This document shows, in pieces, positions 4,184 through 23,185 of a DNA stretch of 25,417 nucleotides (position 1 is its first letter; the number at the start of each line of letters is the position of its first letter). A model generated the notes under the pieces. It searched no databases. It was given only the letters and a program-made list of their open reading frames with translations, and had not been told where the DNA came from. This DNA comes from a virus (lineage: Duplodnaviria; Caudoviricetes). A program made the translations under genes and the position numbers. The stretch covers positions 1 through 25,417 of IMG/VR virus record IMGVR_UViG_3300028145_000020. One strand, written 5' to 3'.

Positions 4184-4359
4184 GTGAATCGACAGTTGCC
4201 GCTGCCATGTGCCGAGATTTCCGTGATGGCCGCCGCATTTGGGTGCCGCCGACTGGCAAGCCTTTTTGGGCGCATTGCAGTCCGACCGTCAATTTAACTG
4301 ATGAAGAAATCCGACGTTATTTGCCGGATTTGATCGATCAGAAGGAAGCGCAATCATGA
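4180..4359 (+). CDS. Small hypothetical protein (59 aa)
   Basis: GTGA overlap with the portal stop, AAGGAAG SD upstream, ATGA overlap with the next gene; start revised from the track's 4087. Confidence 0.6.
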   Translation: MSESTVAAAMCRDFRDGRRIWVPPTGKPFWAHCSPTVNLTDEEIRRYLPDLIDQKEAQS

Positions 4360-4559
4360 GTGATGAACCAAAACCGACTATTCCCGATTTAGTTCGACGT
4401 AGTTTGAGTCGTTTAGTGATGGCTTGTCCTGAATGTCGTGGCTATGGAAATAAGGGCGGTTTGTTATTTGCAACCGACCGACAACCTTGTCCGATCTGTA
4501 AGCCAGTTAGGCAATGGATTTGGGAAATCTACGGGATCGACTTTGAGGAACTGACATGA
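4356..4559 (+). CDS. Small Zn-finger protein (CPECRG...CPIC), 67 aa
   Basis: Two CxxC pairs; ATGA coupling at both ends; AT-rich codon usage. Confidence 0.7.
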   Translation: MSDEPKPTIPDLVRRSLSRLVMACPECRGYGNKGGLLFATDRQPCPICKPVRQWIWEIYGIDFEELT

Positions 4560-5221
4560 AAGAACTCACGATCCGCATGAAGGACGATATGGCTGAAATC
4601 CTGCTCTATGACCAGATCGGCGAAGACCCGTTTTTCGGTGACGGGATTTCCGCCAAGACGTTCCGCGAACAGATCAAAGCCGTCAAGGCCAGGACGATTA
4701 ACCTTCGCATCAACTCGCCTGGCGGCAGTGTCACTGAAGGCGCGGCCATGATGTCGGTACTGGACGATTTCAAGGGCACGGTGGAAGTAGACATCGATGG
4801 TATGGCGGCCAGCGCTGCCTCGGTGGTTGCCATGTCCGGCGACACGATTCGTATGGCTTCAAATGCGCTGATGATGATTCATGACCCTTACGCTGGTGTC
4901 ATGGGCGGGGCCGATGAGATGCGGCGCACCGCGGATCTGCTCGACAAGGTGAAAGGCCAGATTCTCGACGCTTACGGGCGGCGCGCGAAGGCAGATCGAA
5001 AAGCGATTGCGAAGATGATGACCGATGAGACCTGGTTCAATGGCCAGGAGGCAGTCGAGGCCGGGCTTGCCGACGAAACCACCGCACCGATGCAAATGGC
5101 GGCATCCTTTGATCTGACTAAGTTCGGTTATCGCAAGGTGCCGGAAAAGCCCGGGCCGACTCCCGAGCAGATCGCGGCTTTCAGCGCGCGCAAGGAGCGA
5201 TTCAAGACTCTTTGCTCTTGA
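4556..5221 (+). CDS. Prohead maturation protease, ClpP-like
   Basis: INSPGGSV, DGMAASAAS (catalytic Ser), MMIHDP (His), ETWFNGQEAVEAGLAD. Confidence 0.96.
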   Translation: MKELTIRMKDDMAEILLYDQIGEDPFFGDGISAKTFREQIKAVKARTINLRINSPGGSVTEGAAMMSVLDDFKGTVEVDIDGMAASAASVVAMSGDTIRMASNALMMIHDPYAGVMGGADEMRRTADLLDKVKGQILDAYGRRAKADRKAIAKMMTDETWFNGQEAVEAGLADETTAPMQMAASFDLTKFGYRKVPEKPGPTPEQIAAFSARKERFKTLCS

Positions 5222-5247
5222 CATAAGCTCGCCTGTTTATCTAAATT
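5218..5247 (+). promoter_or_regulatory. Candidate sigma70 promoter for the capsid operon
   Basis: Perfect -35 TTGACA (5218-5223, overlapping the protease stop), 18-nt spacer, -10 TAAATT (5242-5247). Confidence 0.55.
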
Positions 5248-5256
5248 GAATCCATC

Positions 5257-5364
5257 GCCGGGCATTCTTCGATTGCCCAGCACCAAACCAAAATCAGCTA
5301 GGCGCGGCCTTCTTCGATGGTCGAAAGCGAGCAGCTTTCTTCCATCGGTGAGAAATGCCGCGTT
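5257..5364 (+). promoter_or_regulatory. Structured 5' leader of the major capsid gene (candidate translational switch)
   Basis: Two hairpins with the identical loop TTCTTCGAT (5260-5278, 5306-5322); an alternative long stem 5301-5364 sequesters the RBS and ATG. Confidence 0.6.
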
Positions 5365-6722
5365 CAATCACCACAGTCAAAGAAGATTTGGCGCATAAAC
5401 AGCGCTGCGCTCAAGACCTTATCGACCGGGCCGAAAAAGAAAACCGCGTTACCACCGCCGAAGAAAACACGCTTTTCGACAAGCAGATGTCGGACGTGGA
5501 AACGCTCAAAGCCGAGATGGCGGCGCTTCAGGAACATGACCGGCGCCGGACCAGCATCAACGATCTGCGGAAAGAGTTTGAGGAATCTCGGCGGGTCACA
5601 TCGCCAACCGCGGTTGCCAAGCCCAATCCAACCGATTTCGATGGAACGCTGAACCGTTACCGCCGGGACGGCAAGCTCCATGCCTTTACCGGAGCAAATG
5701 CCGAGGAGCGCGCGTACCGCAGCGGTATGTGGGCCAGGGCATTCTGGTTCAACGACGTGCGCGCCCAGAACTGGTGTGTCAATCACGGCATCGACATCCG
5801 CAACGCGCAGGGTGAGAATGTCAATTCGGCCGGCGGCTATCTGGTGCCGGATGAATTCTCGCAGGCCATCATCGACTTGCGGGAACAATACGGCGTTGCC
5901 CGCCAGAACGTTCAGATCATGCCGATGGGCCGCGATACGATGCTGATCCCGCGGCGGGCGGGCGGCATTACGATTGCTCCAATTGGCGAAAATCCTACCT
6001 CGGCAATCGGCCAATCTCAGGCATCCTGGAACAATGTTCGCCTGGTCGCCAAGAAGTTCGGCGGGTTGACTCTGATGTCAACCGAGATCGCCGAAGATGC
6101 GATTATTTCGCTTGCCGACTGGTTGGCACGTGAATTCGCCTACGGCTTCGCGCTGTTTGAAGACCAGTGCCTTTTCCTTGGCGATGGCACGTCAACCTAT
6201 GCCGGTATTCGCGGGCTGGCGAATATTCTTGTCGCCGGCACGCTCATTAGCGCACAGGATGCCGCAACCGGCCACGATACGCTGCCGGAAATTGACGCTG
6301 CCGATTTGACCAAGTGCATGTCGGTCCTTCCGGCCTACGCTCGGCGAAATGCGAAGTGGTTCTGTTCGGCCGCCGCGTCGGATCTCGTCTTTGGCCGTTT
6401 GATGGCTGCTGCCGGTGGAAACAACATCCAGACCATCATGGGCGGCTACGGACTGAGCTATCTGGGTTATCCGATTGTGATTTCGCAGCTTCTGCCGGCG
6501 AGCGGCACAATCAACGACGTGCCGATTCTTTACTTCGGCGATTTGAATCTGGCGGTAACGATGGGCGACCGGCGCCAGGTGACGGTCTTCCCGTCCGAAC
6601 ATCGCTACATGGACACCGACCAGATCGGCATCCGTGCAACGGAACGGTTTGACATCGTGGTTCACGACTACGGTGATACGACCGTTGCCGGTCCAATCGT
6701 TGCGCTTGTGGGCAATACGTGA
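5355..6722 (+). CDS. Major capsid protein, HK97 fold, with N-terminal delta/scaffold domain
   Basis: N-terminal coiled coil; SAGGYLVPDEFS, LVAKKFGGL..MSTEI.ED, YLGYPIV, ILYFGDL, IGIRATERFD motifs. Confidence 0.97.
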   Translation: MPRSITTVKEDLAHKQRCAQDLIDRAEKENRVTTAEENTLFDKQMSDVETLKAEMAALQEHDRRRTSINDLRKEFEESRRVTSPTAVAKPNPTDFDGTLNRYRRDGKLHAFTGANAEERAYRSGMWARAFWFNDVRAQNWCVNHGIDIRNAQGENVNSAGGYLVPDEFSQAIIDLREQYGVARQNVQIMPMGRDTMLIPRRAGGITIAPIGENPTSAIGQSQASWNNVRLVAKKFGGLTLMSTEIAEDAIISLADWLAREFAYGFALFEDQCLFLGDGTSTYAGIRGLANILVAGTLISAQDAATGHDTLPEIDAADLTKCMSVLPAYARRNAKWFCSAAASDLVFGRLMAAAGGNNIQTIMGGYGLSYLGYPIVISQLLPASGTINDVPILYFGDLNLAVTMGDRRQVTVFPSEHRYMDTDQIGIRATERFDIVVHDYGDTTVAGPIVALVGNT

Positions 6723-6746: not shown

Positions 6747-7052
6747 ATGGCCAAAATCATCGTCAATTACGCTGGCGATGTCACGGATGACAAGCGGAAA
6801 TCGTTGACCAAGAAAATGGCGGACCTTTTAGCGGTTCTGGAAGAGGACATTATCATCCTCTCGAATGTGACCATTTCCGTTGTGGAAATCCCTGCGGAAA
6901 TGACCAAGGCCAGGGCTGCCAAAGACAAGGAAGACGCTGCGGCAGCCGAGAAGGCCGCCCACGAAAAGGAAAAGGCCGAAAAGGCGGCGGCGGCAGCGGC
7001 TGCCAAGGCCGAGAAAGCTGAAGCCAAGGCGCACGCACACGACAACGCATGA
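6747..7052 (+). CDS. Hypothetical protein with Ala/Lys/Glu low-complexity helical tail
   Basis: AGGAG SD; globular ~50-aa N-terminus followed by AEKA repeats. Confidence 0.8.
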   Translation: MAKIIVNYAGDVTDDKRKSLTKKMADLLAVLEEDIIILSNVTISVVEIPAEMTKARAAKDKEDAAAAEKAAHEKEKAEKAAAAAAAKAEKAEAKAHAHDNA

Positions 7053-7297
7053 AAGAGCTACCCAAGTGCCGGGTCATTCTGGCTTACGGCACTTTTCGCG
7101 TTGGCAACATCATTACCCCGCCGGCGATGCTGCGCGGCTGGCTGATGGCTCGTGGATTCATCGAACTGGTTGAACCTGCCGAGAAATCGGCAAATCTCGG
7201 AGAGAAACATGATCTCGTTGCAAGACGTGAAGATCCTCAACACGACGCCGCCGGTCGCCAGCGTAAACAACACAAGCGCGCTCACAACCACGATTGA
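7049..7297 (+). CDS. Small head-associated hypothetical protein
   Basis: ATGA coupling; the RVILAY..FRVGNII....RGWLMARGFIE pattern resembles small proteins often found after HK97 capsid genes; the C-terminus overlaps the next gene. Confidence 0.65.
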   Translation: MKELPKCRVILAYGTFRVGNIITPPAMLRGWLMARGFIELVEPAEKSANLGEKHDLVARREDPQHDAAGRQRKQHKRAHNHD

Positions 7298-7670
7298 CAC
7301 GCTTGGGTTTGATTACTGCTCCATCTTCGTGGAGTTCGGCGTCATGGACGCGGCGCTTACGGTGTTGAAGGTCCAGGAGTCGGACTTTGCCAACATGTCG
7401 GGTGCTGCCGACATCACGGGTTTGATTTACGGCACCAGCACGAACATCGCTGGCTCGGTGAGCGCGTTGCCATCCAGCACCAGCGACAACACGGTATTTG
7501 GCTTCGACATCGACCTGAAAGCCCGCAAGCGATACCTGGACGTGGTTGCGACCGTTGGGGCCGCCGGCACGACCGGGGCTTTCATTACTTGCCAGAGTGT
7601 TCTTTCACGTGCCGAGCAGGCGCCGACAACGGCCGCCGCACGCGGGTGCGCCGACATCCTCCGGGCTTGA
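7209..7670 (+). CDS. Putative capsid cement/decoration protein (Bbp16-like beta-sandwich)
   Basis: GGAGA SD before ATG 7209; IDTLG..LKVQESD..DLKARKRYLDVVATV pattern recalls Bbp16-like cement proteins; lies just after the capsid gene; Ser/Thr rich. Confidence 0.65.
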   Translation: MISLQDVKILNTTPPVASVNNTSALTTTIDTLGFDYCSIFVEFGVMDAALTVLKVQESDFANMSGAADITGLIYGTSTNIAGSVSALPSSTSDNTVFGFDIDLKARKRYLDVVATVGAAGTTGAFITCQSVLSRAEQAPTTAAARGCADILRA

Positions 7671-7677
7671 GATTTAC

Positions 7678-8976
7678 ATGCGCGTTTTGCTTGCGATGCC
7701 GCGCTATAGCGGCAAAGTCTGGATGCCGGCGGCGCAGGCGTTTTTCAATCCGTCAAACGCAGGTTCCCCGCTCGATGTTCGCCATTGCGACATCCGGTAT
7801 CCGCGCGCCATCTCGCCGAATTCCAGCATCGCTACAGCTTGTTTTAACGCCTGCTGGGCAATGGCCCGTAACGAGTGGGAAGCCGGTCGCATCGATGCCT
7901 TTGCGATGATTCATGACGACGTAGGCGCTCAGATGCAATGGCTGGACATTCTGCATCGCGAGCGCGAGAAGTGCGGCGCCGACATCATTTCAACTGCTGT
8001 ACCGATCAAGGATGCCCGCGGGCTGACTTCCACGGCGATTGATGACCTTGATGAGAAATGGCGGGTGCGCCGGATCACGACCAAACAACTCCGCAAGCTG
8101 CCGTTGACGTTCACGGATTCAGATGTTCCTGGCCTGTTGCTAAATACCGGCCTTTGGCTGGCGAAGCTCGGGCCGTGGATGAATGAAGTTTGTTTCCATG
8201 TGCCGAACGCCATCGAGCGGATCAACGGCCGGTGGAAAGCTCTGCACTTCCCGGAGGATTTCAACTTCTCGCGAGATTGCCGCAAGCTGGGTCTGAAGCT
8301 GGCCGCGACTAAGGCTGTTCGCGTCGATCACTTCGGCGAGCATGGCTGGTCGAATCAGGAAGCCTGGGGCTGGGAAAAGGACGTGCAGGCGTTCCCGGGC
8401 GAAATGAAAGTGCCGGAAAATTGGCGATTCCCCGACGATGTTACTGGCTGGCTTACTGAGAGCGAAGGCCGGGCACTGGCCGAGGCCGCGCTTGGCAAGA
8501 ATGTCCTGGAGATCGGCAGCTATTGCGGTCGCAGCACGATCTGCATGGCGCAAACTGCCGGCATGGTCTATGCCGTGGATACATTCGACGGGCGCGCGAC
8601 TCCGCAGGCTCGCGACACTTTTGATGAATTCAATCTCAACATCGACCGCTATGGCGTTCTCAGTCGCGTCATGGTCGCGGTTGGAACCTCGGCTGACGTG
8701 GTGCCGACTCTCAGTGAAGAAATGGGGATGGCTTTTATCGACGGCGCGCATGACGAGGATTCGGTTCTGGCCGATGCCAAACTTGCCAACTCGATAAGCG
8801 CTGCTGATTCGCTGATGTGTTTCCACGACTACATGCGACCTGGAAATGAAGGCGTTACGACCGCCGTTGATTTGCTTCGCCGCAATGGTGCCGAACTGAT
8901 TCGCGTGGTTGACAGTGTGGCGATGCTCAAAGGCATGGATCGGGCGCTGGCGAATCTGGCTGGGAGCAAGACGTGA
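7678..8976 (+). CDS. Glycosyltransferase (GT-A-like) plus class I SAM-dependent methyltransferase fusion, 432 aa
   Basis: N-domain MRVLLAMPRY, FAMIHDDV (DxD-like), NTGLWL, PEDFNFS..RKLG...VDHFG; C-domain VLEIGSYCGRST, YAVDTF, FIDGAH, FHDY (Methyltransf_24-like); start revised from 7546. Confidence 0.85.
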   Translation: MRVLLAMPRYSGKVWMPAAQAFFNPSNAGSPLDVRHCDIRYPRAISPNSSIATACFNACWAMARNEWEAGRIDAFAMIHDDVGAQMQWLDILHREREKCGADIISTAVPIKDARGLTSTAIDDLDEKWRVRRITTKQLRKLPLTFTDSDVPGLLLNTGLWLAKLGPWMNEVCFHVPNAIERINGRWKALHFPEDFNFSRDCRKLGLKLAATKAVRVDHFGEHGWSNQEAWGWEKDVQAFPGEMKVPENWRFPDDVTGWLTESEGRALAEAALGKNVLEIGSYCGRSTICMAQTAGMVYAVDTFDGRATPQARDTFDEFNLNIDRYGVLSRVMVAVGTSADVVPTLSEEMGMAFIDGAHDEDSVLADAKLANSISAADSLMCFHDYMRPGNEGVTTAVDLLRRNGAELIRVVDSVAMLKGMDRALANLAGSKT

Positions 8977-12533: not shown

Positions 12534-13922
12534 GTGGCTTACGAAATTGATGACGATGAAATCATCGCCGCGATTTTAAGCGTGCCAACTCATTTCGCTG
12601 TCACCAAACATTTGCAAGTTGTGATGACTGCCAACGCGCAGCAGTTGGAGTCCGCTCTCACCAACGTCAACAGCCTTTTCGGCAAGCTACAAGGCGCAGT
12701 CGGCCTGCTTGGCATTGGTTTGTCGGCTGGTGGGCTGTTCGCGGCTTTCGAGCATTTCAACAGCCAGATTGTCGAGTTCAAGCACGCATCTGACACGCTT
12801 GGAATCTCACTTGAAAACGTGGCCGGTGTGAAGCTCGCTGCCGGCAGCAATTGGGAAGGAGTGCAGGCCGGGCTTGCCAAGATGGTCAAGGCGCTTGGCG
12901 AGGCCAGGTTCGGATCGGAGGAAGCGGCCAAGGGCTTTAAGCTGCTGGGTTTGAACGTCGAAGAACTCAGCGGAATGAAAACAGAAACGGCGCTCGGGAT
13001 GATTGCCGACAAGATGAAGGCAATCGAGAATCCGACCGAGCGTGCTTACGTCGCCAGCCTGATCTTCAAAAAGGGCTGGGTGGAAATGATTCCGATCCTG
13101 GAGAAGGGATCGGCCGGTTTGAAAGCAGCCGAGGAGTCGGCGAACAAGTTTGGTGCTGTTACCGAGAAGATGGCTGAGGAGGCAAAGAAGACAAAAAAGG
13201 AACTCAAGGAACTGGCTGCGGATTGGGATGCGCTGGGGCGCAATATCTCTAGCGCGACCGCGCATCTGTGGGAAAACATCAAGGCCGCCGAGGCGTGGGT
13301 TTCGGCAGACCTGAAGATGCGCCAGAAACTTCGTGATCCGAATGCAACTGAGAAGGAGAAACAGGACGCCCGCGACATGCGGGATTTCGGGATGCTCGAC
13401 CAGACCCGCGGCCCGTCAGTGGTCAAGCAAAAGATTGATCCGGTCAAAGCGCAAGCCGATCTGGATGCTCTGGAAGCCAAAAAAAAACAGCAGGAGAAAG
13501 ACAGGGAAGAAGCTCTCAGGGTGCAGGAGAGTTTGCAGAAGCGAGCCAACCAGTTGATCGAGGAAGCGGACTCGCCCTGGGAGAAAGTCAACCGAAAGAT
13601 CATGGAGGCCACAGACCTATTCGCGCGCGGGCTTATCCCAACTGCCGCGGAGTTCGACAAGGTTATCGGACACATCGGCGATTCATTCGTTCACGCTGAA
13701 AAGGCCAAAGAGGATTTTGCCGGGACAGCCGGACTGGAGCGCGGCGGGGCCGGTGCCTTCTCAGCACAGGAGCGATTCATTCGTGAATCGGAAGGCGTGA
13801 AGGACGCGACCCGCGACCAGCTTGCCGAGCTAAAAGCGATTCGTTCCAGTTCGACCAAGACCGAGCAGAACACCAAGGGCATGGCGGATGCCTTGAAGAA
13901 AATCGGCGTGGCGAAGTTCTAG
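12534..13922 (+). CDS. Tape measure protein (short, 462 aa)
   Basis: Follows G-T; LQVVMTANAQ N-terminal motif, helical Ala/Lys/Glu composition, FKLLGL..IADKM..IENPTER...IF core. Confidence 0.85.
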   Translation: MAYEIDDDEIIAAILSVPTHFAVTKHLQVVMTANAQQLESALTNVNSLFGKLQGAVGLLGIGLSAGGLFAAFEHFNSQIVEFKHASDTLGISLENVAGVKLAAGSNWEGVQAGLAKMVKALGEARFGSEEAAKGFKLLGLNVEELSGMKTETALGMIADKMKAIENPTERAYVASLIFKKGWVEMIPILEKGSAGLKAAEESANKFGAVTEKMAEEAKKTKKELKELAADWDALGRNISSATAHLWENIKAAEAWVSADLKMRQKLRDPNATEKEKQDARDMRDFGMLDQTRGPSVVKQKIDPVKAQADLDALEAKKKQQEKDREEALRVQESLQKRANQLIEEADSPWEKVNRKIMEATDLFARGLIPTAAEFDKVIGHIGDSFVHAEKAKEDFAGTAGLERGGAGAFSAQERFIRESEGVKDATRDQLAELKAIRSSSTKTEQNTKGMADALKKIGVAKF

Positions 13923-14245
13923 GGCATCCGGCTGAGTGCGCCAAGAATCATGAAGGCGATGACGATCAACGCAGGGACGACGATGAACGCCGTGATAATC
14001 CCGCAGCCGATTCCAAACCCGACGCTGAAGCTGCTGGGAGGCTGCGGCGCTGGTGGTTGCGGCCGAGGCGTGGGTGGTTCGTTCCATTCGACGGCAGGTG
14101 GCGGTATTGGTGGTGTCGCGCGAATGCCATCGAATCGCGCCCATTCAAATGAAGTTCCGCATCGGGAACAAGCTGCTTTCGTGGCCGTTTGTTTGTCGGC
14201 GAATCGTTGCGACAGTCCGCATGACGGGCAATCGAAGTCAATCAT
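13919..14245 (-). CDS. Antisense moron: Zn-ribbon (CPSC...CSRC), Pro-rich linker, C-terminal transmembrane helix; 108 aa
   Basis: MIDFDCPSCG...AACSRCG, PPIPPP..PQPP linker, hydrophobic FGIGCGIITAFIVVPALIVIAFMILG; fills the gap between the tape measure and the next gene; start revised from 14326. Confidence 0.8.
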   Translation of the reverse strand: MIDFDCPSCGLSQRFADKQTATKAACSRCGTSFEWARFDGIRATPPIPPPAVEWNEPPTPRPQPPAPQPPSSFSVGFGIGCGIITAFIVVPALIVIAFMILGALSRMP

Positions 14246-14260
14246 GGCGCTGGTCCGATA

Positions 14261-15346
14261 ATGGGTGTGGTTTCCTGTTTTGAGATCATGGATCGCCGGC
14301 GCGGTGGCGTGGACGCCAACCGTCACCGCACCTACGAACGCGTCTTCCGTGTCGAGTTTGATTCTGCGATTTCTTCCGGTACGCTCGCCTGCCAGCAGGC
14401 GGTATATGACACTTACGGTATCTTCCGGTTCGCTGTCTACATCGAACCGAACGGGCGTTATGATCGTGCGGCCCTGGCGGAATCAATCGAATCGACGCCA
14501 GAGGATGCAGAGAATTGTTTCAGTTGGATCACGGTAGTCAAGTATAGTTCGCAGATTTGGGACGACTATCTAAAAGCGCTTCAATCCGGCGGCACTGGAC
14601 GTTCGGGCAGCCCGCCGACTTCGCCGCACAATCAGAACAGCGATTCCAGCAGCCCCGAGAATCCGTTGAACCGGCCTGCGAATCTTCGGTTCAGCACGGG
14701 CCACGGCGAAAAGATGGCGCTTGAGCAGGACTATTCGGGCATTCTCGACCCGGCGACCTTTCGACCTACGGGTATTGCTGTTGCCAACAGTGCTGGCGAC
14801 CGATTCGACCCGCCTGTCGAGATCGAGCTGCCTTCGTTTGTTATCACGGTATCGCGCAACGAAGCGAATCTGCTGATCCCATTCCCCATCGATGCGACCT
14901 CGGGGAACGTGCTGAACTACACCGAGACGATGAACAGCGATGTTTTCAGGATTGGCAGTTTCACTTTCCTGCCAGGCCAAGCGCACATTGCCGACATCCA
15001 GGCCGAAAGTGTTTTTGAAGATCCCTGGAGTTATTTCAAAGTCACTTACGAAATTCAGATTCGCTACCCAACCAGGAACGGCAATCTGGCTGGCAATGCG
15101 GCCAAGCCGATCCGCGGCTGGGACATTGACAAGCTGGACCAAGGGCGGCGCGAACTGGTCGCGGCCGGATCGTGGATGCAGCAGAACTACGACAAATACG
15201 GGACGCCATCGGCGAGTGATATTCCGCTCGACGGCGCCGGTCGGGCGCTAACCGTGGCGAACATCCAGGCAAGAAACTTTCAGTATCGGGCTTTCAGGCG
15301 GTTCATTGAAGCGTCCTACACGGTGTTGCAGATGCCGCACATTTGA
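14261..15346 (+). CDS. Putative distal tail/tail-tip protein, 361 aa
   Basis: First plus-strand gene after the tape measure; RTYERVFRV, NSAGDRFDPPVE, YFKVTYEIQIR beta-rich segments; function from position only. Confidence 0.7.
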   Translation: MGVVSCFEIMDRRRGGVDANRHRTYERVFRVEFDSAISSGTLACQQAVYDTYGIFRFAVYIEPNGRYDRAALAESIESTPEDAENCFSWITVVKYSSQIWDDYLKALQSGGTGRSGSPPTSPHNQNSDSSSPENPLNRPANLRFSTGHGEKMALEQDYSGILDPATFRPTGIAVANSAGDRFDPPVEIELPSFVITVSRNEANLLIPFPIDATSGNVLNYTETMNSDVFRIGSFTFLPGQAHIADIQAESVFEDPWSYFKVTYEIQIRYPTRNGNLAGNAAKPIRGWDIDKLDQGRRELVAAGSWMQQNYDKYGTPSASDIPLDGAGRALTVANIQARNFQYRAFRRFIEASYTVLQMPHI

Positions 15347-22690: not shown

Positions 22691-23185
22691 ATGAAATTCG
22701 CATTCGGCATTCTTGTATTGGTGCTGGTGGCTGCGCAGGCCCGCCCGCAGGGCTGCAACGGGCGTGGCAGCGTGTTTGGCTTCCAGAACGTGCGCGAACG
22801 TCATGTCGTCCGTTCTTTCAGCACGGCTCGCGGTGGATGCAGCGGAGTCGCGGCCTATGGAACCGGCTGTTCCGGCACGGTCCAGATGGTCCCTGTTACG
22901 GAATACAAGCCGGTGACTCGCTGGGTGGTCGCCGATCTTCCTCCGAAGGCCGCTCCGCAGCCGATGCCGAAAGGCCCACCGCCCATCATCGCCTATGCCC
23001 CGATTGTCCAGACGGCCGAGCCACCGCTATTCGGATCGAGAATCCGTGCCACCGTTGGGGTTGGCATCCACGGCATCGCTGGCCTGCTATGCCGAGCCAA
23101 ACATGCGATGGTCGCGGTTGTGACGGCGCCGCTGCACCTGCGGTCGAAAGAAGTCCACCGCGAGTTCCACTTGTTCAAGCGTTGA
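22691..23185 (+). CDS. Secreted protein with signal peptide and GCxG repeats, 164 aa
   Basis: AAGGAG SD; MKFAFGILVLVLVAAQA signal peptide; GCNG, GCSG, GCSG; Pro-rich linker; alternative start 22658. Confidence 0.7.
   Translation: MKFAFGILVLVLVAAQARPQGCNGRGSVFGFQNVRERHVVRSFSTARGGCSGVAAYGTGCSGTVQMVPVTEYKPVTRWVVADLPPKAAPQPMPKGPPPIIAYAPIVQTAEPPLFGSRIRATVGVGIHGIAGLLCRAKHAMVAVVTAPLHLRSKEVHREFHLFKR

What the first reader, a model, noticed from the sequence alone, without database searches (positions are those of the whole stretch)
5218..5364. Capsid mRNA leader with two identical-loop hairpins competing with an RBS/start-sequestering stem: candidate translational switch
Seen: after a candidate promoter (TTGACA-18-TAAATT), the 9-mer TTCTTCGAT occurs twice (5265-5273, 5310-5318). 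Each copy is the loop of a hairpin with a different stem sequence (GGGCA/TGCCC; GGCC/GGTC), and an unstructured A/C-rich linker separates them. Hairpin 2 is mutually exclusive with a long stem: CGCGGC 5303-5308 with GCCGCG 5357-5362, TTCT 5310-5313 with AGAA 5351-5354, CGATGG 5315-5320 with CCATCG 5342-5347, and GAAAGC/GCTTTC at the apex. That stem buries the capsid RBS region and ATG. A further CCATCG at 5252-5257 can also capture CGATGG. Inference: a dimeric RNA-binding factor or antisense RNA recognising both loops would stabilise hairpin 2 and free the RBS, switching capsid synthesis on. A similar loop (CCTTCGAT) overlaps the 22691 start codon, a possible third site. I know of no described element matching this.
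Basis: partly seen in the sequence, partly recalled or inferred. Interest (0 to 1): 0.85.

Follow-up and report, generated by a model that had tools for sequence, protein, structure and literature searches.

The report
Twin-triloop RNA switch gating phage capsid
The untranslated stretch in front of this uncultured phage's capsid gene carries two hairpin-forming sequences with the same tiny loop, kept by compensating mutations in related phages and absent from the Rfam catalogue, and the second is predicted to compete with a helix that hides the ribosome landing site, so it likely is an on-switch for capsid synthesis thrown by a still unidentified RNA-binding protein.

Summary
The leader between the ClpP protease and HK97-type capsid genes folds far better than shuffles (z -4.1). 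All nine distinct loci of this capsid clade with leader DNA carry two cores 5'-YC[NUH]GR-3' 40-55 nt apart; none of 37 tree rows outside the clade matches the profile built from them. The conserved unit is not the 9-mer but a triloop on a two-pair stem whose outer pair switches U-A/C-G (16 of 16 paired; covariation 0.74 vs 0.26, 0 of 500 shuffles). The first loop base is the same in both hairpins of each locus (9 of 9) while changing between loci. Hairpin A is predicted stable; hairpin B is predicted only on nascent RNA and is then absorbed into a helix burying the Shine-Dalgarno site. A sigma70-like promoter precedes 7 of the 8 discovery loci. Best model: a bivalent protein loaded on A traps B and frees the ribosome site, working like Mu Com/mom or ANTAR dual hairpins but failing their defining loop features. 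No such protein was found in these fragmentary contigs, and nothing is shown experimentally. The proposed third site (22691) and the CCATCG capture are not supported.

The parts
4556..5221 (+). ClpP-type head maturation protease gene; its stop codon overlaps the -35 hexamer
   Evidence: phrog_94 E 4e-67; PF00574
5218..5247 (+). sigma70-like promoter candidate TTGACA-18-TAAATT; start site inferred near 5254
   Evidence: 10 of 12; similar TTG(A/C)(C/A)N-17/18-hexamer 18-26 nt before hairpin A core in 7 of 8 discovery loci; start site is inference
5260..5278 (+). hairpin A: 5-bp stem, U.U mismatch, UC[UUC]GA two-pair triloop cap; predicted stably folded
   Evidence: (core pair probability 0.79-0.81; at least 0.79 in 7 of 8 loci)
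5279..5302 (+). A/C-rich linker, predicted single-stranded
   Evidence: A+C 0.61-0.89 in 8 of 8 loci
5305..5323 (+). hairpin B (ON state): CGGCC/GGUCG stem, U.U mismatch, UC[UUC]GA cap; predicted only on nascent RNA
   Evidence: P 0.60-0.67 for transcripts ending 5326-5338, 0.0 from 5346 on
5303..5362 (+). long interrupted OFF helix that uses hairpin B as its 5' strand and buries the ribosome-binding site and start codon; apical hairpin 5323-5339
5347..5357 (+). Shine-Dalgarno-like GGTGA (5347-5351) and ATG (5355-5357)
   Evidence: sequence; start agrees with homolog N-termini; relatives have GAGGG/GAGGA/AGGGA here
5355..6722 (+). HK97-fold major capsid protein gene, the regulated gene
   Evidence: phrog_10 E 6e-47; PF05065

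Best explanation
The 5' leader of the capsid mRNA is a conserved two-state RNA whose predicted ground state buries the ribosome-binding site, and it likely is switched on by a bivalent RNA-binding protein, not identified here, that would dock on hairpin A and trap the look-alike hairpin B. Shown by comparison: two YC[NUH]GR triloop hairpins, a flexible linker, and a helix in which hairpin B's strands pair over the Shine-Dalgarno site, all kept by compensatory change. Predicted by folding: A is stable, B exists for about 15-20 nt of transcription and is then displaced. Inferred: a host-type promoter makes the leader at any time, capsid translation stays off (and untranslated RNA would be open to Rho polarity) until a phage late factor is present; because forming B costs up to 14 kcal/mol at equilibrium, capture is most likely co-transcriptional, with A serving as the loading dock.
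For: Nine of nine distinct clade loci with leader DNA have both cores: 8 used to define the motif and L457, found afterwards through the protease gene and hit by the profile at E 0.006. All 8 fall in one capsid fork (SH-aLRT 96) holding no other locus row; the 37 locus rows outside gave no hit. 16 anchored hairpins: inner C-G 16 of 16, outer pair U-A 9 / C-G 7, covariation 0.74 vs 0.26 shuffled (0 of 500) and at most 0.20 for slid partners; hairpin B alone 0.41 vs 0.20 (0 of 500), flanked by a pyrimidine-pyrimidine mismatch in 9 of 9. First loop base identical in A and B in 9 of 9 loci (G six, A two, U one), the two A loci not being sisters in the tree. The same base pairs with the SD strand as U-A, G-C or A-U in 5 of 8 loci, so ON and OFF folds are both maintained. 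Hairpin B probability at most 0.013 in full-length RNA in 8 of 8, 0.27-0.87 at peak on nascent RNA; cost of opening -12..+3 falls from 7.4-21.1 to 5.3-9.8 kcal/mol when B is forced. Mis-called N-terminal extensions of two more capsid proteins can encode the B core at the expected place (P0030, 4 of 500 shuffles; P0032, 38 of 500). Precedent: Com binds a short hairpin next to the mom translation-inhibition structure (PMC6483171); ANTAR dimers bind two loops, the second competing with a terminator (PMC3369931).
Against: No experiment and no read data. No shared regulator gene was found: genes shared among the fragments are structural; Com, ANTAR and Ogr families gave 0 of 5 records each, though records are 11-60% complete and the Com and ANTAR controls rang nowhere. 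Only nine loci; related sequences inflate shuffle tests, and motif and anchoring were chosen by me. Hairpin A's triloop register is poorly predicted in L015 (0.02) and L457 (0.0-0.12); L015's leader is no more stable than shuffles (z +0.22). L015 has no promoter match and L457 has a tRNA-like stretch in its place. In L090 forcing B gains only 2 kcal/mol of access. The fall in opening cost follows partly by construction. For the window the reverse strand folds as well (z -5.5 vs -4.9), and the G-U versus A-C tally is only 9 to 4. Five of 7 clade extensions tested could not show the core (four are too short to reach it; P0024, 20 residues, did not match).
Confidence: 0.6

Rival explanations
1. 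The OFF helix is opened by a host activity rather than by a loop-reading phage protein, for example RNase III cleavage or binding as in T7 early leaders or lambda cIII (recalled), or it is a fixed damper on capsid translation; the hairpins only stabilise the 5' end.
For: Long interrupted helix of 17-25 pairs in most loci; hairpin A lies within about 5-15 nt of the inferred 5' end; no regulator gene found.
Against: Does not explain why a hairpin that is unpopulated at equilibrium keeps its own covarying stem, nor why loops A and B change together. An opening cost of 18 kcal/mol is implausible as a fixed setting for the most abundant virion protein (inference).
Confidence: 0.15
2. An antisense RNA pairs with both repeated loops and opens the OFF helix, in the manner of the repeated targets of P1 C4 or P4 CI RNA (recalled).
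For: Repeated 7-9 nt sequence, literal in three loci (window, L090, L122); concerted change of the first loop base fits a single complementary partner.
Against: Positions 1 and 7 of the core always change as a Watson-Crick pair (18 of 18) and differ between A and B in 6 of 9 loci; a triloop is a poor pairing seed; no exact complement in the window (window about 60% of the genome); no Rfam C4-type hit.
Confidence: 0.08
3. The factor is a structural or packaging protein (capsid delta domain, protease, terminase) that reads the hairpins to match capsid output to assembly, as P22 scaffolding protein regulates its own mRNA (recalled), rather than a dedicated late activator.
For: The motif tracks the capsid clade exactly, and the only genes shared by all fragments are head and neck genes.
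Against: Binding to B would activate, giving positive feedback if the capsid itself binds; no RNA-binding family matches any of these proteins.
Confidence: 0.12
4. The two cores are quasi-palindromic DNA operators for a transcription factor at the promoter, and the RNA folds are a by-product.
For: YC-NNN-GR is a short palindrome, and U-A/C-G switching is also what a homodimer site would show; the sites lie just downstream of a promoter; the reverse strand folds comparably in the window.
Against: Spacing 40-55 nt is out of helical phase; the flanking positions are pyrimidine on both sides in hairpin B (9 of 9), which breaks a DNA palindrome; outer stems covary without sequence conservation; compensation extends to the SD strand; sense strand has the better folding z in 6 of 8 loci.
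Confidence: 0.05

Closest known systems
Phage Mu Com / mom translational activation (PMC6483171)
   Different: Com reads CC(N)2-3GAG in a six-base loop; here the consensus is YC[NUH]GR with Y after it in hairpin B, there are two separated hairpins 40-55 nt apart, the target is the capsid gene, and no Com-family gene was found.
ANTAR dual-hairpin targets of EutV, NasR, AmiR (PMC3369931; review PMC12591593)
   Same: Two hairpins with like loops, the second mutually exclusive with a longer inhibitory helix; dimeric reader implied.
   Different: ANTAR loops are hexanucleotides with A1 and G4 and linkers of 5-12 nt; here loops are odd-length (triloop) without A1/G4 and the linker is about 17-32 nt; the competing helix has no U-tract; where ANTAR sites overlap the RBS the review reports inhibition, not activation.
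Candidate structured RNAs before HK97 capsid genes in Fremin et al. 2023 (PMC10690425), and Rfam GP20-a/b
   Same: Uncharacterised cis RNAs directly upstream of phage head genes; six candidates are listed before HK97 capsid genes.
   Different: No Rfam match here. The six candidates are 61-104 nt with no host assigned; their alignments could not be read, so identity with this motif is not excluded.
CsrA/RsmA dual GGA hairpins (recalled)
   Same: Dimeric protein bridging two loops over a flexible linker of tens of bases.
   Different: Loops here contain no GGA; CsrA usually represses.

Membership tests
ANTAR dual-hairpin RNA | Two hairpins, the second overlapping the 5' arm of an inhibitory helix | tested here: met
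   (predicted and covarying)
ANTAR dual-hairpin RNA | Hexanucleotide loops with A at 1 and G at 4 | tested here: not met
   cores are YC[NUH]GR, loop lengths 3, 7 or 9; definition from PMC3369931 passages
ANTAR dual-hairpin RNA | Linker of about 5-12 nt | tested here: not met
   linker about 17-32 nt in 8 loci
ANTAR dual-hairpin RNA | Cognate ANTAR (PF03861) protein | tested here: inconclusive
   0 of 5 fragmentary records, control rang nowhere; host genome unknown
Mu Com-binding site | Short hairpin next to or overlapping a translation-inhibition structure | tested here: met
Mu Com-binding site | CC(N)2-3GAG loop motif | tested here: not met
   none of the 18 cores reads CC-NNN-GA; 10 have C-NNN-GA with U in front, 8 have CC-NNN-GG; motif from PMC6483171
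Mu Com-binding site | Com-family zinc-ribbon gene (PF10122) in the phage | tested here: inconclusive
   0 of 5 records 12-60% complete, control rang nowhere; no Com hit for small zinc ORFs
Mu Com-binding site | Protein-dependent activation of translation | not testable with these tools
   needs reporter and binding assays
Any Rfam 15 family | Score at or above the gathering threshold | tested here: not met
   0 hits in the window; best in 5150-5450 E 3.2; none in the leaders of L090, L122
Intrinsic terminator / attenuator | U-tract after the inhibitory helix | tested here: not met
   no terminator-like site in the leader; no T-run in the 21 bases from the start codon in 8 loci

The most novel reading that the evidence does not exclude
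HK97-like phages of this group, probably of Planctomycetota, time their capsid genes not with a late promoter activator but with an undescribed family of RNA-binding proteins that read RUY-loop hairpins: in this clade a twin-triloop anti-sequestrator, in a sister group a single CU[NRUY]AG hairpin that competes with a terminator. That would be a widespread, modular RNA-level late-gene switch with protein-RNA pairs that co-evolve phage by phage.
Probability: 0.3. Interest if true: 0.82.

Novelty: new variant of a known kind. Interest (0 to 1): 0.63.

Why it matters
Activation of translation by a phage protein is well studied in essentially one case, Mu Com, which controls a DNA-modification gene. 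A covarying twin-hairpin switch on the major capsid gene itself, behind a host-type promoter, would show that some temperate-type phages gate virion assembly at the RNA level. The motif is short, defined and testable, predicts a bivalent reader with phage-specific loop preference, and could supply orthogonal translational on-switches.

Tried and rejected
Rfam: no family. Third site at 22691 and CCATCG 5252-5257 capture: rejected. Loop A pairing with the SD strand: probability 0.0. Of 12 stem-closed cores in the window, only three lie in this leader; the other nine are single and scattered; extra CCYYCNTYGRYGG matches in G672 and G674 looked like chance in coding sequence. Pattern scans of viral contigs were mostly chance: 120 stretches of an unfinished scan gave only known loci, 11 gave 2 known loci, 108 gave no new leader. 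No close prophage in 401 phylum and 267 order genomes around a Fimbriiglobus bin (one 36% match); cultured phages reach only 26%. Whole-leader MAFFT alignment misregisters hairpin A; the structure I gave model R1 fits its alignment poorly, so R1 acts mainly as a sequence profile. Candidate factors: zinc-finger-like ORF 4356-4559 has no family (Anti-TRAP/DnaJ-like at E 0.05-0.08, Atlas 0.86) and no counterpart in the relatives; small zinc-ribbon ORFs lie just before the leader in only 2 of 118 loci, one outside the clade. Read data for start site or expression were not obtained. Literature: eight searches found no description of this motif; one search had an ill-chosen term and one search matched a software name; the library lacks most subscription papers.

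Full report
Context. The window is a linear virus record, estimated 60% complete, holding an HK97-like head-tail module: terminase, portal, ClpP-type protease (4556-5221), major capsid (5355-6722), neck and tail genes. The capsid has 1214 homologs at E <= 1e-60 among 7999 candidates scored, the best at 62%; one clade member is named from a Gemmataceae bin, a weak pointer to a Planctomycetota host. Cultured phages reach only 26%.

Observation. The 141-nt region folds at -48.1 kcal/mol, z -4.12, 0 of 200 shuffles. The 9-mer repeat alone is weak (150 of 5000 shuffles); two stem-closed cores at this spacing occur in 1 of 5000, with a pattern chosen afterwards. The upstream CCATCG does not capture CGATGG (probability 0.0) and the 22691 site forms no such hairpin.

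Relatives. Eight distinct loci, the window included, share the architecture: window, L001, L002, L005, L006, L015, L090, L122 (capsid identity 46-57% to the window). In a quick maximum-likelihood tree of 73 rows (45 loci, 28 proteins; loci under 43% identity, with late match starts or under 330 aa were left out; SH-aLRT only) all eight lie in one fork with support 96 that holds no other locus row. L035, dropped for length, is 84% identical to P0081 outside that fork. A profile of the 3' half (R1, mostly sequence) hit only these eight among 200 sources, plus two reverse-strand matches at E 0.4-0.8; all 37 outside rows were among those sources. A ninth locus, L457, found later through the protease gene, was hit at E 0.006 among 98 further sources and carries both cores 48 nt apart: an out-of-sample confirmation. 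Mis-called N-terminal extensions of P0030 and P0032 can encode the B core at -51 and -47 (4 and 38 of 500 shuffles); P0030's matches nine residues of the in-frame reading of L005's leader; five other clade extensions did not show it, four being too short.

The motif. The conserved unit is 5'-Y-YC[NUH]GR-3': a triloop (GUU, GUC, AUU, AUC, AUA, UUC) closed by C-G and then U-A or C-G. On 16 anchored hairpins the inner pair is invariant, the outer pair is U-A in 9 and C-G in 7, 88.5% of cells pair, and the covariation score is 0.74 against 0.26 for shuffles (0 of 500) and at most 0.20 for slid partners; the two type-count measures were not significant (264 and 59 of 500). Hairpin B alone scores 0.41 against 0.20 and always has a pyrimidine-pyrimidine mismatch under the cap (9 of 9). 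The shuffle control ignores kinship and the anchoring was mine. The first loop base is the same in A and B in 9 of 9 loci although it differs between loci (G, A, U), and the two A loci are not sisters. In L090 the loop is not paired in the OFF helix, so this identity is not explained by pairing with the SD strand and points to one trans-acting reader of both loops (inference).

Two states. In all eight discovery loci the ground state pairs part of hairpin B with the strand carrying the Shine-Dalgarno site; hairpin B has probability at most 0.013, hairpin A at least 0.79 in 7 of 8. The first loop base of B pairs with the SD strand as U-A, G-C (three loci) or A-U, so the OFF helix also compensates. 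On growing transcripts B peaks at 0.27-0.87 and, in the window, lasts from about 5326 to 5342. Forcing B costs 2.7-14.5 kcal/mol and lowers the cost of opening the start region from 7.4-21.1 to 5.3-9.8; L457 gives 13.2 to 4.2. This drop is partly by construction. A sigma70-like promoter lies 18-26 nt before core A in 7 of 8 (L090's -10 departs from TAnnnT); no U-tract follows the helix, so the control is translational, not termination.

Mechanism. Most likely a bivalent protein binds the always-folded hairpin A near the 5' end, reaches over the A/C-rich linker and traps hairpin B before the 3' strand is made, leaving the ribosome site open. Without it the mRNA from the host-type promoter is locked. 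The structure and its conservation are shown computationally; the protein, the switching and the start site are inferred. No regulator was found: shared genes among the fragments are structural (output partly cut), and Com, ANTAR and Ogr families gave 0 of 5 records each, all fragments, with silent controls for the first two. Rivals are host nuclease or fixed damping (0.15), a structural protein as reader (0.12), antisense RNA (0.08) and DNA operators (0.05). Results against the reading: weak triloop prediction for hairpin A in L015 and L457, no folding signal in L015, no promoter in L015, comparable reverse-strand folding in the window, and only nine loci.

Comparison with known systems. It works like Mu Com/mom (PMC6483171: read part 1 of 6 of the text and 12 passages) and has the layout of ANTAR dual hairpins (PMC3369931: 12 passages; PMC12591593: 4 passages; PMC8934654 seen only as a search listing), but fails the loop motif of both and the ANTAR linker length, so it is filed under neither. 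Rfam has no match. Fremin et al. 2023 (PMC10690425: 10 passages and supplementary files 3 and 5 searched) list six candidate RNAs before HK97 capsid genes; their alignments (files 1, 2, 4 and three oversized files) were not readable or not searched, so overlap is not excluded. Eight literature searches found no description. RNase III leaders, lambda cIII, P1 C4, P4 CI, P22 scaffolding autoregulation and CsrA are recalled, from no call. An earlier unchecked AI note (e1-6094025) describes the same layout with a different loop before capsid genes of another phage; it is a lead, not support. In my own loci two further leader families recur before more distant HK97 capsids, one with an RUY-loop hairpin competing with a terminator.

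Verdict. A real, clade-wide, uncatalogued RNA motif with comparative support for two alternative folds; a new variant of protein-responsive leader switches, reader unknown. Interest 0.63.

Noticed in passing
L043, L085, L177, L190, L192 (about 100-116 nt before the capsid start); also L145, L208, L213: A sister leader family before more distant HK97 capsids (32-38% identity): hairpin GC-AA-CU[NRUY]AG-CG-GC, predicted on nascent RNA (0.78-0.94) but displaced in 5 of 8 loci by a long hairpin followed by a T-rich tract, mostly then an RBS-covering hairpin. Same design and RUY loop letters, acting on a terminator; no Rfam hit in L085, L177, L192.
   Followed up: partly
L027, L037, L038, L062, L123 capsid leaders: A third leader type with two tandem hairpins sharing a GCCRAAGC loop, followed in four of the five by a terminator-like hairpin; no Rfam hit in those scanned.
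   Followed up: partly
126 distinct capsid leaders among L001-L235: 38 of 126 have a run of five T 15-70 nt before the start, many between a long hairpin and an RBS-sequestering hairpin: structured capsid leaders are common in this phage group.
   Followed up: no
window 5336-5355: A third consensus core CC[ATC]GG (5342-5348) with a 6-pair stem overlaps the Shine-Dalgarno site; seen only in the window, where it is the complement of hairpin B's 3' side.
   Followed up: partly
window 4356-4559 (+): 67-aa ORF with two CxxC pairs between portal and protease; weak Anti-TRAP/DnaJ zinc-finger likeness only.
   Followed up: partly
window 13919-14326 (-): 135-aa antisense ORF in the tail region with a zinc ribbon (PF13717 E 5e-4, under cut-off), proline-rich linker and hydrophobic C-terminus; looks like a moron.
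   Followed up: no
L015 1059-1238, L009 5682-5849, L365 1476-1667: Small zinc-ribbon ORFs (55-63 aa); two lie directly before the capsid leader; no family above cut-off.
   Followed up: partly
L457 about 4430-4490: tRNA-Met-like stretch (CAT loop, TTCGA arm, by eye) directly before hairpin A in place of a promoter; not called by ARAGORN. The capsid frame of L457 is interrupted near its start relative to P0055.
   Followed up: partly
window 7049-7297 and about 7209-7670 (+): Two small genes after the capsid gene are conserved across the clade, their frames overlapping by about 90 nt; the second matches phrog_5707, unknown function.
   Followed up: no
window 7546-8976 (+): A methyltransferase-domain gene (PF13578) sits inside the head-neck module; L041 has a 55% identical counterpart, and other relatives carry sugar-modifying-looking genes here.
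   Followed up: no
L072 7905-7966: Rfam int-alpA RNA above gathering score inside a phage structural region.
   Followed up: no
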